Notes: generated by a model from the letters alone, not told the origin. Positions 45,816 to 49,948 are shown, numbered from the stretch's first letter. The stretch is DNA of 64,000 nucleotides from an uncultured Dehalococcoidia bacterium (GCA_950072105.1 CATMOE010000010.1:4438-68437), one strand, 5' to 3'. Numbers and translations are program-made.

Positions 45816-46916
45816 TCAGTCTACCAACAAGGGCAATTGTTCGTCGGGCGGACCGCTGGTGTTCGCAGCGTCCAAGTCCAATGGATAATATACTCTCGAA
45901 CGGGTTTTGCCTTCCAGCCTAAATACACCCACATTCACCATCTCGTTCAGATCCCGTGAGGCCGTAGCCGGGGAAACGCCGGTGATTTCCATGTAATCCG
46001 ACCGGGTCATCTGCCCGGTCTGGAGTGCGAAGACGTAGGCGTCTACGTGGCGCTGGGGCCAACCGCTGGCGGCCCAAGTGTCACGAACTAGCTGCATCAT
46101 CCGGTGCCATCCCGTCGTCCTTGCCACTAGATCGTCGGAAGCAGTCTTCAGTACCATGATGGAGAACTCCAGCCAGGGCGTGGCATCATACCCCACGGAG
46201 AACTCTTGCCCCAATGACCTACCGATGGCAGAAAAGTAATCGTCTTTGAGGTTCAAGAAAACCGACTCGGTGGAGATCAACTTCCTGAACCCGTAGGGCG
46301 ACCGCTGCAGCAGCAGGGTTTCCAGCCCTCGAGCCGTCCTTCCGTTTCCGTCCCAAAAGGGGTGGATGGCAACCAGATGCAGGTGGGCGATCCCAGCTTT
46401 CAGAACAGGGTGCACTCCGTCATCCTCCTTCAGCCATAGGGCGAAGGAACGCATCAACCCGGGAACGTCCCTCTGGTTCGGTGTTCGGAAATCGCCGACG
46501 GAGTTAGGTCCCTTCCGGTACACACCCGGTGTGAGCATTTCCGAGGCAGTCGATATGAAATATCGGTTGAGCTGCCGCATCACAAGTTCGTCTACCGGAA
46601 TATCTCCTTGATCGCTGATGAAGTCGATGAAGTCGTAGGCCTGAATAGCGTTGATGTTGGCCTGCTCATCCTCGGTAAATTTGCCCGTGAACCCCCCGCC
46701 GGCCAGATTCCTTACGGCTGTTTCGTCAAGGGTAGCTCCCTCGATCCTGGTCGTACCGGAGGACCGTCGAACTTGGACATCCCGATGAAACCAGGCTTCG
46801 TGCTTGGGCATCAACAGCATATTCTCGATCAACCATTGGTTCCGTTCGATTCCATCCAGGCAAACCTCGATATTGGGTGTAATGGTATAATTCGGCTGGA
46901 AGATACTATCATTCAT
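45816..46916 (-). CDS. Fic family protein (class II, N-terminal inhibitory motif) with C-terminal winged-helix
   Basis: Canonical Fic motif HPFWDGNGRTAR. N-terminal TTRIEG fits the (S/T)xxxE(G/N) inhibitory helix. Start taken at Met18 (46916), because the longer ORF start lies upstream of the only -10-like element. Confidence 0.85.
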   Translation of the reverse strand: MNDSIFQPNYTITPNIEVCLDGIERNQWLIENMLLMPKHEAWFHRDVQVRRSSGTTRIEGATLDETAVRNLAGGGFTGKFTEDEQANINAIQAYDFIDFISDQGDIPVDELVMRQLNRYFISTASEMLTPGVYRKGPNSVGDFRTPNQRDVPGLMRSFALWLKEDDGVHPVLKAGIAHLHLVAIHPFWDGNGRTARGLETLLLQRSPYGFRKLISTESVFLNLKDDYFSAIGRSLGQEFSVGYDATPWLEFSIMVLKTASDDLVARTTGWHRMMQLVRDTWAASGWPQRHVDAYVFALQTGQMTRSDYMEITGVSPATASRDLNEMVNVGVFRLEGKTRSRVYYPLDLDAANTSGPPDEQLPLLVD

Positions 46917-46954
46917 GGCATAGCAACCTAAGTAATACTCTCTGTTTGATAGAT

Positions 46955-46971
46955 ATGATAGTATCATTATA
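46955..46971 (-). promoter_or_regulatory. palindrome overlapping a TATAAT box upstream of fic
   Basis: Perfect inverted repeat atgata-g-tatcat (46955-46967). The minus-strand TATAAT is at 46966-46971. No good -35. Confidence 0.3.
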
Positions 46972-47043
46972 TAACATTCGGGTCAACCTGCCCTACACAG
47001 AACCAACTCCAGCCGTCCCACACGCAGTGACCGGCCACGCCTG

Positions 47044-47073
47044 TTGACAGTTGTTGACGTTCTCAGGTAGACT
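47044..47073 (+). promoter_or_regulatory. sigma70-type promoter of the sulfite-reductase leader
   Basis: TTGACA (47044-47049), 18-nt spacer, TAGACT (47068-47073). Confidence 0.4.
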
Positions 47074-47093
47074 TCATTCCAATGAGTCTCGTA

Positions 47094-47174
47094 TCGATTA
47101 ACTGCTGCATCTGTACCTGTCCCCCCACAGAGGGGGCAGGCTAGTCGTTCGTCCAACGACATCGTCTTAATCGA
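47094..47174 (+). ncRNA. structured leader: closing helix P1 enclosing two hairpins (candidate riboswitch aptamer or sRNA, class unknown)
   Basis: P1 is tcgattaa 47094-47101 with ttaatcga 47167-47174. P2 is 47116-47140 (9 bp, one bulged T, 6-nt loop). P3 is gtcgtt-cgtcc-aacgac 47144-47160. Confidence 0.4.
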
Positions 47175-47182
47175 CACCTGCG

Positions 47183-47218
47183 CCCACCAAGCACGCCGTT
47201 TGGTGGGTTTTTTATTTT
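47183..47218 (+). terminator. intrinsic terminator in the sulfite-reductase leader
   Basis: cccaccaa (47183-47190), 9-nt loop, ttggtggg (47200-47207), then TTTTTTATTTT. No U-run in the opposite orientation. The AGGAGG RBS lies 10 nt downstream. Confidence 0.7.
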
Positions 47219-47239
47219 GCCAAATCGTAGGAGGCCACG

Positions 47240-49114
47240 TTGACAAGTCCGACCGGAGGAACCCAGGTAATAAACCAGGAAAAGATTCACCAAGAGAGCA
47301 TGGCGCTGGCCCCGTCTGCTACGGGGATCATCCCCTTCATGGACGAAGAGATCGTCCGCCTGGAAGAGGAGTCCCAAAAGTTCCAGAACGGTGAACTGGA
47401 AAACGCCGAATTCACCCCTTTCCGGCTACGCCAGGGAGTGTATGGCCAGCGCCAAGCCGACGTTCAGATGATACGAGTCAAACTGCCCGGTGGGATCATC
47501 ACCGCCGACGGTTTGCAAATGTTTGGGAAGATCACCGAACGGTATGCGCCTCTGCAAAAAGGTCACATCACCACACGGGAGAACATCCAGATCCACCACA
47601 TTCCCTTGGACGAGTGCCCAGAAGTTTTGCGTTTGCTGGCAGAGGTGGGGTTGAGCACCAGAGAAGCGTGCGGCAACACCGTCAGAAACGTGATCAGCTC
47701 GCCTGGCGCGGGGATATGCCCCGACGAAGTTTTCGACCCGACACCCCACCTGACAGCCTACGTGCGGTTCGGCATTCGCCATCCCATCACGCAGAACTTC
47801 CCTCGCAAGTTCAAGACGGCCTTCACCGGATGCGACTCCCATGACACCGTGGCCGCCGCCATCCAGGACCTGACCTTCGTCTCTCAGATCAGAGAGACTG
47901 ACGGCGTTACCCAACGGGGGTTCAGAATATTCGTGGGCGGCGGCACATCCATCATGCCCCGGCTAGCCAAACCTTTGTACGACTTCCTGCCTGAGGACGA
48001 CTACTTGCGGCTGAGTTTGGCCATCTGGACGGTCTTCAACAACGCCCAGATGTTGCGCAAGAACCGTATGATGGCCCGGCTCAAGGTTCTCATCGACCGG
48101 ATCGGGCTGGATGATTTTCGCGCGCAAGTTGAGGAAGAACTGGAGAAGATAGGCCCCATAGACCCCAAGCCTTTGATGGAAGCCGAAGAGATCCATAGAG
48201 AAACCGCGCCGGCTGTGGAGCATCTCTCCTTCCCGGCCCTCAAACTCAACGGATCCTCTAACAACGGTCACCACGGAGACGATGAGTTCGATCACTGGAC
48301 GGAAACAAACGTTTCCGCTCAGAAGCAAGAAGGCTATTACCTGGTCTACGTCAAAATGACCCGTGGCGACATCACCGCAGCCCAGTTCCACGGTCTGGCA
48401 GACATTGTCCGCCGCTACACCGGCGGCCGCGCCCGAACCAACCAGGAGCAGAACCTGGCCCTCCGCTGGGTCCCTGGCCAGTCATTGAAAGAAGTATGGC
48501 AAGCATTGAAAGCCATTGGTTTGGCCGATGCCGACGTCCACACCATCGCTGACGTCGTTTCCTGCCCCGGAACCGACAGCTGCAAGCTGGGCATCACCTC
48601 GTCGATGGGCCTGTCCAAGGCCGTGACGGATGATATGGCGGGCTGGAACGGTTTGATGGAGGACGAAGGGGTCCGTAAGATCCGCATCAAGATAAGCGGC
48701 TGCCCCAACGGATGCGGGCTGCACCACATCGCCAACATAGGCTTCCACGGCGCGGCCGTTAAAGGCCCCGACGGCGATCAGATCCCGGCCTACGAGCTGT
48801 TCCTAGGCGGCAACTACGGCGATAACCGAGTGGAGGACTCCAGCATCGGCACGCGGATTCCCAAGGTGAAAGTCCCCGCCAAGGCCGTTCCGGGCGTCAT
48901 CAAACAGATCACCACCTACTACAAAGAGAACCGCCAGAACCAGGAGAGCTTCAACAAGTTCCTGGAAAGGGTCGGTATCGCCCAACTAACCGCCGTCGCC
49001 GCCCAAGCCCAGAGTATCACCGAGTCCACCGAAGCGGGTTCCGACCTTTACTTCGATTGGGAGCGGACCAACATATACAAGCTGGAACGCGGTGAAGGTG
49101 AGTGCATGGTCTAG
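47240..49114 (+). CDS. sulfite/nitrite reductase hemoprotein (ferredoxin-dependent type)
   Basis: 624 aa. Siroheme-[4Fe-4S] Cys motifs ..SCPGTDSCKLG.. and ..SGCPNGCGLHH.. TTG start 5 nt after AGGAGG. Confidence 0.85.
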   Translation: MTSPTGGTQVINQEKIHQESMALAPSATGIIPFMDEEIVRLEEESQKFQNGELENAEFTPFRLRQGVYGQRQADVQMIRVKLPGGIITADGLQMFGKITERYAPLQKGHITTRENIQIHHIPLDECPEVLRLLAEVGLSTREACGNTVRNVISSPGAGICPDEVFDPTPHLTAYVRFGIRHPITQNFPRKFKTAFTGCDSHDTVAAAIQDLTFVSQIRETDGVTQRGFRIFVGGGTSIMPRLAKPLYDFLPEDDYLRLSLAIWTVFNNAQMLRKNRMMARLKVLIDRIGLDDFRAQVEEELEKIGPIDPKPLMEAEEIHRETAPAVEHLSFPALKLNGSSNNGHHGDDEFDHWTETNVSAQKQEGYYLVYVKMTRGDITAAQFHGLADIVRRYTGGRARTNQEQNLALRWVPGQSLKEVWQALKAIGLADADVHTIADVVSCPGTDSCKLGITSSMGLSKAVTDDMAGWNGLMEDEGVRKIRIKISGCPNGCGLHHIANIGFHGAAVKGPDGDQIPAYELFLGGNYGDNRVEDSSIGTRIPKVKVPAKAVPGVIKQITTYYKENRQNQESFNKFLERVGIAQLTAVAAQAQSITESTEAGSDLYFDWERTNIYKLERGEGECMV

Positions 49115-49123
49115 GGTACGGGA

Positions 49124-49948
49124 GTGGCAGCCTCGCTAAGCGGCAAAGTCGTCGCCTTTTTGGAATCCCGCATGCAATCGGAGATGGCGGGGCTGATTGA
49201 ACGCCATGGAGGCACACCCTACCCTGCTCCGGTCCTTCAGGAGGTCTATCTGAAGGACAGCCCTGAAGTGCGGCGATTGATTCAGGATATCTGCGCCGAA
49301 CAGGTCGATATAGTCGTCCTGCTCACCGGCGTGGGCACCCAAGCCCTCGTCGAGACCGCCGCGTCCATGGGCCTGGAGCAAGATTTTCTCCGGAGCCTGA
49401 ACACCCGGACCATCATCGCCCGCAGCCCCAAGCCCGCCAGGGTGCTGCGCCGGCACAAGATTCACATCGACGTCATGCCGCCGGAACCCTACACCTCACA
49501 GGACTTGATCCAGGCCATACAGGATATGGACTTGTCCGGAAAAGAAGTGGCGGTGCAGGCATACGGCGGGCCCAACAGCTTCCTCAAACGCAGTTTGCAA
49601 GAAAGCGGCGCTAATGTTCGAGAAGTCACGCTGTATACCTGGGGGCTTCCCGAGGATACGGCGCCGGTGGTGCGGCTGATCGACGATCTGGCCCTGGGCG
49701 CGATCGATGCCATGGCATTCACCAGCCAACCCCAGGTTGAAAACCTGCTGACCGTCGCCGCTCAGATGGGAAGGGACGAATCCTTGAGGAAAAGTCTTGA
49801 CCAACCGTCGCTGGCGATCGCTTCCATAGGACCGGTTTGCAGCCGGAAGCTGAGGGAGAAGCACATCAAGATCGACGTGGAACCGGAGCACGTTCACATG
49901 GGCAACCTGATAGTCGCCCTAGCCGAACACTTGGGTCCGGACGTTTAA
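49124..49948 (+). CDS. hemD: uroporphyrinogen-III synthase family protein
   Basis: 274 aa. Two-lobed HemD-like pattern (..VVLLTGVGT.., ..AMAFTSQPQV.., ..IASIGPV..). Context is directly after a siroheme enzyme. Confidence 0.65.
   Translation: MAASLSGKVVAFLESRMQSEMAGLIERHGGTPYPAPVLQEVYLKDSPEVRRLIQDICAEQVDIVVLLTGVGTQALVETAASMGLEQDFLRSLNTRTIIARSPKPARVLRRHKIHIDVMPPEPYTSQDLIQAIQDMDLSGKEVAVQAYGGPNSFLKRSLQESGANVREVTLYTWGLPEDTAPVVRLIDDLALGAIDAMAFTSQPQVENLLTVAAQMGRDESLRKSLDQPSLAIASIGPVCSRKLREKHIKIDVEPEHVHMGNLIVALAEHLGPDV

What the first reader, a model, noticed from the sequence alone, without database searches (positions are those of the whole stretch)
47044..47239. Promoter, three-helix structure and intrinsic terminator directly upstream of the sulfite-reductase/hemD operon: candidate riboswitch or attenuator of unrecognised class
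**Seen in sequence.**
- TTGACA-N18-TAGACT lies at 47044-47073.
- About 20 nt downstream, an 8-bp closing helix (47094-47101 with 47167-47174) encloses two strong hairpins at 47116-47140 and 47144-47160.
- Next comes a canonical intrinsic terminator: an 8-bp GC-rich stem at 47183-47207 plus TTTTTTATTTT.
- AGGAGG at 47229-47234 and the TTG start at 47240 follow.
- The U-tract exists only in the + orientation. The terminator therefore belongs to this leader, not to the divergent fic gene.

**Established knowledge.** A promoter, a junction-type aptamer, a terminator and an RBS form the standard architecture of transcriptional riboswitches.

**Inference.**
- I could not match the sequence to any riboswitch class I know (SAM-I/II, purine, TPP, cobalamin, ZTP, guanidine).
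- It may be a new sulfur-, siroheme- or selenium-responsive element, or an independent ~135-nt sRNA.
Basis: partly seen in the sequence, partly recalled or inferred. Interest (0 to 1): 0.6.

Follow-up and report, generated by a model that had tools for sequence, protein, structure and literature searches.

The report
Cysteine-sensing leader-peptide transcription attenuator
The "riboswitch-like" leader before the sulfite-reductase operon of this marine SAR202 bacterium is most likely a classic ribosome-sensed attenuator, in which a 20-codon mini-gene with four cysteine codons decides whether an RNA terminator forms; this is a known kind of switch that I found no report of in this group.

Summary
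It starts 8 nt after the -10 box, so the mRNA is probably leaderless. It has four Cys codons in six (47103-47120).

The last Cys codon lies in the 5' arm of hairpin 1 (region 1, 47116-47124). The 3' arm (region 2, 47132-47140) can pair instead with CCUGCGCCC (region 3, 47177-47185), which overlaps the base of the terminator (47182-47208).

The layout recurs in relatives:
- 65 of 66 distinct orthologous SAR202 leaders have it.
- All three helices are 82-92% paired across 57 leaders, with compensatory changes.
- A second copy in nearly every genome of the family precedes a moeB/moeZ-like plus cysteine-synthase operon.

Verdict: a ribosome-mediated, cysteine-responsive transcription attenuator, not a riboswitch. 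It is a new member of a known kind. The closest relatives are trp/his-type attenuators, the mycobacterial polycysteine leaderless sORFs and the cysS uORFC-8-2 motif. No transcript data could be obtained, so the transcription start, translation and regulated read-through remain inferred.

The parts
47044..47049 (+). -35 box TTGACA. It lies inside a direct repeat TGTTGAC-N3-TGTTGAC (47042-47058).
   Evidence: A -35 box matching at least 5 of 6 positions is present in 63 of 66 distinct orthologous leaders.
47068..47073 (+). -10 box TAGACT
   Evidence: A TANNNT box lies 6-9 nt upstream of the sORF start in 63 of 66 leaders.
47082..47144 (+). Leader short ORF, ATG to TAG, encoding MSLVSINCCICTCPPTEGAG*. 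It is probably leaderless: the transcription start is inferred at A47081 or A47082, and there is no room for a Shine-Dalgarno sequence.
   Evidence: Across distinct leaders, 65 of 66 have a -10 box, an in-frame start and an open frame, against 1 of 66 in each other frame.
47103..47120 (+). Regulatory Cys codons: TGC TGC (47103-47108), TGT (47112-47114) and TGT (47118-47120).
   Evidence: Orthologs average 3.4 Cys codons in the last 8 codons before the Pro-Pro codons. Cys makes up 19.9% of sORF residues against 1.07% in the genome's long ORFs.
47116..47124 (+). Region 1 (CCUGUCCCC), the 5' arm of hairpin 1:2. It includes the last Cys codon and lies inside the footprint of a ribosome stalled at the Cys codons.
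47132..47140 (+). Region 2 (GGGGGCAGG). It pairs with region 1 (anti-antiterminator) or with region 3 (antiterminator).
47144..47160 (+). Spacer hairpin GUCGUU-CGUCC-AACGAC, enclosed by the 2:3 helix in the read-through fold. Its sequence is not conserved.
47177..47185 (+). Region 3 (CCUGCGCCC). It pairs with region 2. Its last 3-4 nt (47182-47185) form the base of the terminator stem.
   Evidence: 87% of cells paired across 57 leaders, against 38-58% when partners are slid
47182..47218 (+). Intrinsic terminator (3:4): stem 47182-47192 with 47198-47208, then a U-tract to 47218.
   Evidence: 11 pairs; -18.2 kcal/mol; 92% paired, with compensatory changes
47229..47242 (+). Shine-Dalgarno AGGAGG (47229-47234) and the TTG start (47240) of the sulfite-reductase gene
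   Evidence: The layout is conserved in orthologs.
47240..49948 (+). Regulated operon: a NirA/Sir-type siroheme sulfite reductase (47240-49114) and uroporphyrinogen-III synthase HemD (49124-49948).
   Evidence: Pfam and NCBIfam

Best explanation
The element is a ribosome-mediated, cysteine-responsive transcription attenuator.

1. Transcription starts at about 47081/47082 from the TTGACA-N18-TAGACT promoter. The RNA therefore begins with the AUG of a 20-codon leader ORF (inferred).
2. A ribosome translating this ORF meets four Cys codons at 47103-47120.
3. When Cys-tRNA(Cys) is plentiful, the ribosome runs on to the stop codon. In this genome that is UAG 47142. In most relatives it is a UAG in the loop of hairpin 1. 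The ribosome then covers region 2 (47132-47140), or region 2 re-pairs with region 1 after release.
4. Region 3 is then free, the terminator 47182-47208 plus U-tract forms, and transcription ends in a leader RNA of about 135 nt.
5. When Cys-tRNA(Cys) is scarce, the ribosome stalls on the Cys codons. Its footprint (to about 47130) hides region 1.
6. Region 2 then pairs with CCUGCGCCC (47177-47185). This takes the bottom G-C pairs of the terminator stem next to the U-tract, so RNA polymerase reads through into sir-hemD.

The same device controls a second operon (moeB/moeZ-like E1 enzyme plus cysteine synthase). Together they form a small ribosome-sensed cysteine regulon.

Shown: the sequence anatomy, its conservation, covariation, the geometry and the gene associations. 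Inferred: the transcription start, translation of the sORF, stalling and regulated read-through.
For: **The sORF**
- 65 of 66 distinct orthologous leaders have a -10 box, an in-frame ATG or GTG 5-11 nt later and an open frame into the conserved core. Each of the other two frames scores 1 of 66.
- Cys makes up 19.9% of sORF residues, against 1.07% in the genome's long ORFs.
- TGT and TGC interchange (145:96). The number and spacing of Cys codons vary (CxCxC, CCxC, CCCC) and the N-terminal residues are not conserved. So Cys codons, not a peptide, are selected in this lineage.

**The helices, on 57 leaders**
- 1:2 is 82% paired and 3:4 is 92% paired with compensatory swaps.
- 2:3 is 87% paired, against 38-58% for slid partners, with 15 double-change cells.

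**Geometry**
- With the A site on the last Cys codon, all 58 leaders fold so that nt +14 to about +19 capture at least 3 nt (mean 4.7) of the terminator's 5' arm.
- For the window this holds for stalls at Cys codons 2-4.

**Stop codon**
- The loop sequence is conserved where it holds the stop codon (ACAUAG) and is variable in lineages where the stop has moved downstream.

**Regulon**
- Covariance model R1 finds two copies per genome in most genomes of one SAR202 family, and at least one copy in 22 of its 23 sampled genomes.
- In all 14 second copies examined, the copy precedes a MoeB/MoeZ-type adenylyltransferase gene plus a cysK/cysM cysteine synthase gene (NCBIfam on the window genome's own pair). 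Its terminator 5' arm (CCUGCGCC) is itself the antiterminator target.
- A different poly-Cys sORF plus terminator precedes cysH-sat/cysC in another SAR202 family.

**Rfam**
- No family matches, even at E = 10.
Against: - The 5' end, the 3' end at the U-tract, translation of the sORF and cysteine-dependent read-through are all unverified.
- In this window the antiterminator overlaps only 3-4 nt of the 11-bp terminator arm. At equilibrium the full-length RNA can hold the GCAGG/CCUGC helix and the complete terminator together. Antitermination must therefore be kinetic here. The overlap is larger (5-8 nt) in other lineages and complete in the second operon.
- By a crude promoter-distance test, leaderless long genes look rare in this genome (21 of 4634). 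Efficient leaderless initiation is therefore assumed, not shown.
- Related sequences inflate the shuffle controls of the covariation counts.
Confidence: 0.88

Rival explanations
1. A metabolite-binding riboswitch. A three-way-junction aptamer (47094-47174) would bind a sulfur- or siroheme-related ligand and control the terminator directly.
For: The naked RNA folds stably (z = -4.4). Its minimum-energy fold contains the closing helix and two hairpins. The promoter-structure-terminator-RBS layout resembles transcriptional riboswitches.
Against: - The closing helix is not conserved (mean z -0.29; lost at 83% identity).
- Its 5' arm lies in codons 5-7 of a conserved ORF.
- The spacer hairpin varies in sequence and is often absent.
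- The conserved positions are Cys, Pro and stop codons and mutually exclusive helices.
- No Rfam match.
Confidence: 0.03
2. The ~135-nt terminated transcript is mainly a trans-acting small RNA, or a dual-function RNA encoding a Cys-rich micropeptide. Its position before sir would be incidental.
For: The element has its own strong promoter and terminator. Leader RNAs and leader peptides of attenuators can act in trans, for example rnTrpL/peTrpL (PMC7298713). The peptide ending CxCPPT is conserved.
Against: - The element always lies directly upstream of, and co-oriented with, cysteine-pathway operons.
- The N-terminal two-thirds of the peptide is not conserved.
- The conserved peptide ending coincides with RNA region 1 and the stop-codon position.
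- No candidate target was found or looked for.
Confidence: 0.05
3. Hairpin 1, or the nascent peptide (Pro-Pro-Thr-stop), is the sensor. An RNA-binding protein would bind the conserved ACAUAG loop, or ribosome arrest would depend on the peptide. The Cys codons would be secondary.
For: The hairpin-1 loop and the Pro-Pro-Thr-stop ending are strongly conserved. In 6 of 80 related leaders the sORF shows amino-acid-level conservation (RFEDDLFHLC; 89 synonymous against 18 non-synonymous codon differences). This hints that nascent peptides can matter in this family.
Against: - Where the stop codon has moved out of the loop, the loop sequence is free to vary.
- The Pro codons co-vary with region 2, as RNA pairing requires.
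- Cys-codon enrichment is the most constant feature.
- No candidate binding-protein gene is linked.
Confidence: 0.04

Closest known systems
Classical leader-peptide transcription attenuators of amino-acid operons (E. coli trpL, Salmonella hisL, and the leu, thr, ilv and pheA leaders)
   Same: - A short leader ORF enriched in codons for the pathway's end product.
- Four regions forming mutually exclusive 1:2, 2:3 and 3:4 helices, with 3:4 an intrinsic terminator.
- The position of the ribosome decides which fold forms.
   Different: - The sensed amino acid is cysteine.
[quoted passage not shown]
- In this window the antiterminator overlaps only the bottom 3-4 bp of the terminator.
- The host is Chloroflexota (the SAR202 group), not Proteobacteria.
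Mycobacterial polycysteine leaderless sORFs, the 'Cys ribulon' (Ms5788A and others; Canestrari et al., bioRxiv 10.1101/834739)
   Same: - Leaderless short ORFs with Cys-codon runs upstream of cysteine-metabolism operons.
- Several operons are co-regulated through ribosome stalling.
- One target pathway also involves a MoeZ-type enzyme and a cysteine synthase (from my own knowledge of the mycobacterial CysO/CysM/MoeZ route).
   Different: - The characterised mycobacterial case acts on translation: the stalled ribosome opens a duplex that hides the downstream ribosome-binding site.
- Here a conserved intrinsic terminator and antiterminator are present, and pairing with the sir Shine-Dalgarno region is not conserved (mean z +0.23).
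- The sequences are unrelated and the phylum differs.
uORFC-8-2 motif upstream of cysS in Rhodobacterales (Brewer et al. 2021, PMC8632094)
   Same: - A predicted ribosome-mediated attenuator with conserved Cys codons (UGC/UGU) inside the first stem.
- A 3' intrinsic terminator.
- An occasional, unsupported three-stem junction was noted there too.
   Different: - It controls the Cys-tRNA synthetase gene, not biosynthesis genes.
- It has two tandem Cys codons.
- The paper describes a conserved AUG but no leaderless start.
- The sequence and the phylum differ.
Leaderless leader peptides of Deinococcus deserti, including the 10-residue, 2-Cys peptide before cysS (de Groot et al. 2014, PMC4007540)
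   Same: - The transcription start coincides with the start codon of a leader peptide.
- The peptides are predicted to drive transcription attenuation of amino-acid or tRNA-synthetase genes.
   Different: - The transcription starts were mapped experimentally there, not here.
- The target genes and sequences differ.
[quoted passage not shown] 2005, PMC1262725)
   Same: Short ORFs with runs of Cys codons near the stop codon, upstream of cysteine-synthesis operons.
   Different: Those lack recognisable terminators, and a Rho-dependent mechanism was proposed. Here the terminator and antiterminator are explicit and co-vary.

Membership tests
Ribosome-mediated (leader-peptide) transcription attenuator | A short ORF in the leader, enriched in codons for the amino acid made by the downstream operon | tested here: met
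   The sORF 47082-47144 has 4 Cys codons in 6. 65 of 66 orthologous leaders keep such a frame, against 1 of 66 in each other frame. Cys is 19.9% of residues against 1.07% genome-wide.
Ribosome-mediated (leader-peptide) transcription attenuator | An intrinsic terminator between the leader ORF and the first structural gene | tested here: met
   Stem 47182-47208 (11 pairs, -18.2 kcal/mol) plus a U-tract. It is 92% paired in 57 leaders, with A-U/G-C swaps.
Ribosome-mediated (leader-peptide) transcription attenuator | An alternative antiterminator helix that is mutually exclusive with the terminator | tested here: met
   47132-47140 pairs with 47177-47185. The helix is 87% paired across 57 leaders, against 38-58% for slid partners, with 15 compensatory cells. 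Caveat: the overlap with the terminator is only 3-4 nt in this window. It is 5-8 nt in other lineages and complete in the second operon.
Ribosome-mediated (leader-peptide) transcription attenuator | The regulatory codons are placed so that a stalled ribosome masks region 1 and frees region 2, while a ribosome at the stop codon masks region 2 | tested here: met
   The last Cys codon (47118-47120) lies inside region 1. The footprint edge is near 47130, and region 2 starts at 47132. In all 58 leaders the captured terminator nucleotides pair with nt +14 to about +19 after the last Cys codon. The footprint size is taken from general knowledge.
Ribosome-mediated (leader-peptide) transcription attenuator | The controlled genes belong to the pathway of the sensed amino acid | tested here: met
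   The operons are sulfite reductase plus HemD (siroheme supply) and MoeB/MoeZ-like plus CysK/CysM. In another family the controlled genes are cysH-sat/cysC.
Ribosome-mediated (leader-peptide) transcription attenuator | The leader ORF is translated, and read-through rises when the charged tRNA is limiting | not testable with these tools
The organism is uncultured.
Mycobacterial-type polycysteine leaderless sORF attenuator (Cys ribulon) | The transcript begins with the AUG or GUG of the sORF (leaderless) | tested here: inconclusive
   The -10 box ends 6-9 nt before the start codon in 63 of 66 leaders, and there is no room for a Shine-Dalgarno sequence. No transcription-start data were available.
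Mycobacterial-type polycysteine leaderless sORF attenuator (Cys ribulon) | At least two consecutive Cys codons in the sORF | tested here: met
   TGC TGC at 47103-47108
Mycobacterial-type polycysteine leaderless sORF attenuator (Cys ribulon) | Attenuation works by hiding the downstream ribosome-binding site in an RNA duplex (translational control) | tested here: not met
   Pairing of the leader's 5' end with the sir Shine-Dalgarno and start region exists in the window (-17.4 kcal/mol, z -2.5). It is lost in the 96%-identical relative and absent overall (mean z +0.23; 1 of 66 below -2). A terminator is present instead.
Metabolite riboswitch (any Rfam class) | A conserved aptamer fold supported by covariation, or a match to a known class | tested here: not met
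   No Rfam 15 match at the gathering score or at E = 10. The junction-closing helix is not conserved.

The most novel reading that the evidence does not exclude
SAR202 bacteria may run a small cysteine regulon (sir-hemD and moeZ-cysM) entirely through leaderless sensor ORFs, with no dedicated regulator protein. In part of the family the nascent peptide itself may help arrest the ribosome. The candidates are the conserved Cys-Pro-Pro-Thr-stop ending and, in some lineages, the amino-acid-conserved block R-F-E-D-D-L-F-H-L-C with only 1-2 Cys codons. The device would then be a combined peptide-arrest and tRNA-charging sensor, not a pure codon counter.
Probability: 0.12. Interest if true: 0.6.

Novelty: new member of a known kind. 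Interest (0 to 1): 0.35.

Why it matters
- SAR202 is one of the most abundant uncultured bacterial groups of the dark ocean and is linked to sulfur cycling. Almost nothing is known about how it regulates genes.
- This gives a concrete, testable regulatory device for its assimilatory sulfur pathway.
- The cysteine leader supports annotating the NirA-like gene as a sulfite reductase and not a nitrite reductase.
- It ties a MoeB/MoeZ-like plus CysM pair to cysteine synthesis.
- It adds a terminator-based, apparently leaderless cysteine attenuator to a short list of cases. The best-studied of these, in mycobacteria, works on translation.
- For annotation pipelines it is a warning: structured leaders with terminators that match no Rfam family should be checked for short ORFs before being called new riboswitches.

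Tried and rejected
- **Rfam.** Searching the whole window at gathering scores and 46900-47400 at E up to 10 gave only chance terminator-like hits (RybB, SpF10).
- **Translational layer.** Pairing of the leader's 5' end with the sir Shine-Dalgarno region is strong in the window but not conserved.
- **More regulon members in this genome.**
  - A scan for -10 box plus start plus Cys-rich sORFs, and a scan for sORFs with at least 3 Cys followed by a terminator, found only the sir and moeZ leaders.
  - A CxCxC sORF overlapping the start of a JAB/MPN gene on contig C24 is kept only within the genus and absent in other genera, so it is probably chance.
- **Leaderless usage.** A crude test for widespread leaderless long genes found few.
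- **Phyletic range.** The covariance model found only one weak hit in 120 other Dehalococcoidia genomes. This sequence family is confined to one SAR202 family and a few neighbours.
- **Other mechanisms considered.** ANTAR-type, T-box and TnrA-box ideas were considered from memory and dropped once the sORF explained the conserved positions.

Full report
**Observation.**
- TTGACA (47044-47049), an 18-nt spacer, then TAGACT (47068-47073).
- TCGATTAA (47094-47101), complementary to TTAATCGA (47167-47174).
- Hairpins at 47116-47140 and 47144-47160.
- A terminator at 47182-47208 followed by a T-run.
- AGGAGG (47229-47234) and TTG at 47240.

The consensus scan ranks the promoter (10 of 12) and the terminator (11 pairs) as the best sites in 5 kb. 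The leader folds better than 200 shuffles (z = -4.4). The downstream genes are a 624-aa NIR_SIR siroheme reductase and HemD. The upstream gene is a divergent Fic gene. Rfam 15 has no match in the whole window at gathering scores, and nothing but chance terminator look-alikes at E up to 10.

Eight nucleotides after the -10 box an ATG (47082) opens a 20-codon frame, MSLVSINCCICTCPPTEGAG*, ending at TAG 47142-47144. Codons 8, 9, 11 and 13 are Cys (47103-47120). There is no room for a Shine-Dalgarno sequence. If the promoter is used, the mRNA is leaderless or has a 1-nt leader.

**Source genome and relatives.** The genome is a SAR202-type Dehalococcoidia metagenome-assembled genome. I collected 80 orthologous loci upstream of the same reductase gene and read their leaders.
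- Of 66 distinct leaders containing the conserved core, 65 have a TANNNT box, an in-frame ATG or GTG 5-11 nt later and an open frame into the core. Each of the other two frames scores 1 of 66.
- 63 of 66 also have a -35 box matching at least 5 of 6 positions. The gap between the -10 box and the start codon is 6-9 nt.
- The peptides are 16-30 residues long (median 17) and 19.9% Cys. The genome's long ORFs are 1.07% Cys.
- TGT and TGC interchange (145:96).
- The Cys pattern varies (CxCxC, CCxC, CCCC) and the N-terminal residues are not conserved. In this lineage selection therefore acts on Cys codons and on the frame, not on a peptide sequence.
- Most peptides end Cys-Pro-Pro-Thr-stop, with the UAG in the loop of hairpin 1. 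In this window, and independently in another clade, that stop is lost and the frame runs through region 2 to the next stop. The loop sequence is free to vary exactly in those lineages.

**RNA switch.** The last Cys codon and the Pro codons form the 5' arm of hairpin 1 (region 1, 47116-47124). The 3' arm is region 2, GGGGGCAGG (47132-47140). Region 2 is also complementary to CCUGCGCCC (region 3, 47177-47185). The last nucleotides of region 3 are the base of the terminator stem (3:4, 47182-47208).

On a MAFFT alignment of 57 distinct leaders (A1):
- Helix 1:2 is 82% paired.
- The terminator is 92% paired, with clear compensatory swaps: A-U to G-C 29:26, and G-C to A-U 30:19.
- The antiterminator 2:3 is 87% paired, against 38-58% when the partners are slid by 1-3 columns. 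It has 15 double-change cells.

Duplex energies of region 2 with region 3 average -16.4 kcal/mol, against -11.9 for shuffled region 2.

**Geometry.** I assumed a ribosome footprint reaching about 12 nt beyond the first base of the A-site codon, a value from general knowledge.
- A ribosome stalled on the last Cys codon covers the RNA to about 47130. Region 1 is hidden and region 2 is just free.
- Constrained folding of the nascent window RNA then gives the 2:3 helix enclosing the spacer hairpin, for stalls at Cys codons 2-4.
- Without a ribosome, or with one at the stop codon, the terminator forms.
- Across 58 distinct leaders the stalled fold always captures at least 3 nt (mean 4.7) of the terminator's 5' arm. 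The capturing nucleotides lie +14 to about +19 after the last Cys codon.

**Weak point for this window.** The overlap between antiterminator and terminator is only 3-4 nt. At equilibrium the full-length RNA can hold the GCAGG/CCUGC part and the complete terminator together. Read-through must therefore rest on kinetic competition for the G-C pairs next to the U-tract. Other lineages overlap by 5-8 nt.

**Regulon.** A covariance model of the leader (R1) gave these results:
- It finds two copies per genome in most genomes of one SAR202 family, and at least one copy in 22 of the 23 family genomes sampled.
- Matches in sister families of the same order are weak or absent.
- It finds only one weak hit in 120 other genomes drawn across the class.

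The second copy was examined in 14 genomes, including this one (contig C59).
- It precedes a 280-aa MoeB/MoeZ-type adenylyltransferase gene and a 316-aa CysK/CysM cysteine synthase gene (NCBIfam assignments for the window genome's own pair).
- Its sORF ends ...CTCPxT*. The -10 box lies 9-11 nt before the ATG.
- Its terminator 5' arm is CCUGCGCC itself, so antiterminator and terminator are fully exclusive there.

In another SAR202 family a different sORF (VKKVSNCFCCMCC...) plus a terminator precedes cysH and a sat/cysC fusion. All controlled genes belong to sulfur assimilation or cysteine synthesis. This is the expected signature of a cysteine sensor. It also argues that the NirA-like enzyme, which falls below every NCBIfam equivalog cut-off, is a sulfite reductase.

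- The closing helix, and with it the three-way junction, is not conserved: z = -1.3 in the window and a mean of -0.29 over 56 leaders. It is lost in the 83%-identical relative, and its 5' arm lies in codons 5-7 of the sORF.
- The second hairpin is a spacer hairpin of variable sequence, present in about half of the leaders.
- A pairing of the leader's 5' end with the sir Shine-Dalgarno and start region appears in the window's minimum-energy fold. It is lost in the 96%-identical relative and absent overall. I therefore see no conserved translational layer.

**Comparison with what is known.** The mechanism is that of the classical trp/his-type attenuators.
- Cysteine versions were predicted without terminators in Actinobacteria (PMC1262725).
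- They were shown experimentally in Mycobacterium smegmatis as leaderless polycysteine sORFs acting on translation (10.1101/834739).
- They were predicted with a terminator upstream of cysS in Rhodobacterales (uORFC-8-2, PMC8632094).
- Leaderless leader peptides were mapped in Deinococcus deserti (PMC4007540).
- A full-text search found no paper linking SAR202 with attenuators.
- Earlier notes of this scan report similar Cys-sORF attenuators in Chloroflexota, Acidobacteria and other phyla. They agree with this reading but are not independent evidence.

I therefore file the element as a new member of a known kind: terminator-based, apparently leaderless, cysteine-sensing, in SAR202.

**Limits.** The transcription start, translation of the sORF, stalling and regulated read-through are inferences from anatomy and comparative evidence. 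A crude test suggests that leaderless long genes are rare in this genome.

Noticed in passing
L037, L038, L039, L047, L050 and L107 (sir leaders of other SAR202 lineages) and L149 (G027, minus strand): In 6 of 80 sir leaders, and before an unrelated operon in G027, the leaderless sORF encodes a block conserved at the amino-acid level, R-[F/L]-E-D-D-L-F-[H/Y]-L-C, with only 1-2 Cys codons. There are 89 synonymous against 18 non-synonymous pairwise codon differences. This suggests the nascent peptide itself is under selection, possibly as an arrest peptide.
   Followed up: partly
window 47042-47058: A direct repeat TGTTGAC-N3-TGTTGAC with a 10-bp period overlaps the -35 box. It is conserved as TGTTGACAATTGTTGAC in many sir promoters, and the second copy degenerates to TTCCCGAC in others. 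It could be a binding site for a transcription factor acting on top of the attenuator.
   Followed up: no
L154 (G024, another SAR202 family), about 180-330: A different GTG-initiated poly-Cys sORF (VKKVSNCFCCMCCTTTRGA...) with a strong terminator precedes cysH (APS/PAPS reductase) and a bifunctional sat/cysC gene. Cysteine attenuators in SAR202 therefore exist in more than one sequence family.
   Followed up: partly
genome contig C24, minus strand, sORF start at plus-strand position about 23176: The sORF MPLLSCRCICYIQNM... overlaps the start of a 162-aa JAB/MPN (Mec-like) gene, with no terminator. A shortened version is kept only in the same genus and is absent in other genera. It is probably chance.
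   Followed up: yes
window 47080-47098 with 47222-47243: The 5' end of the leader can pair with the Shine-Dalgarno and TTG start of sir (-17.4 kcal/mol, z = -2.5). The pairing is not kept even in the 96%-identical relative.
   Followed up: yes
window 47240-49114: The reductase scores below the curated cut-off of every NCBIfam equivalog. NirA family is the best hit, at 238 bits against a cut-off of 523. Its cysteine-sensing leader argues for sulfite rather than nitrite reduction.
   Followed up: partly
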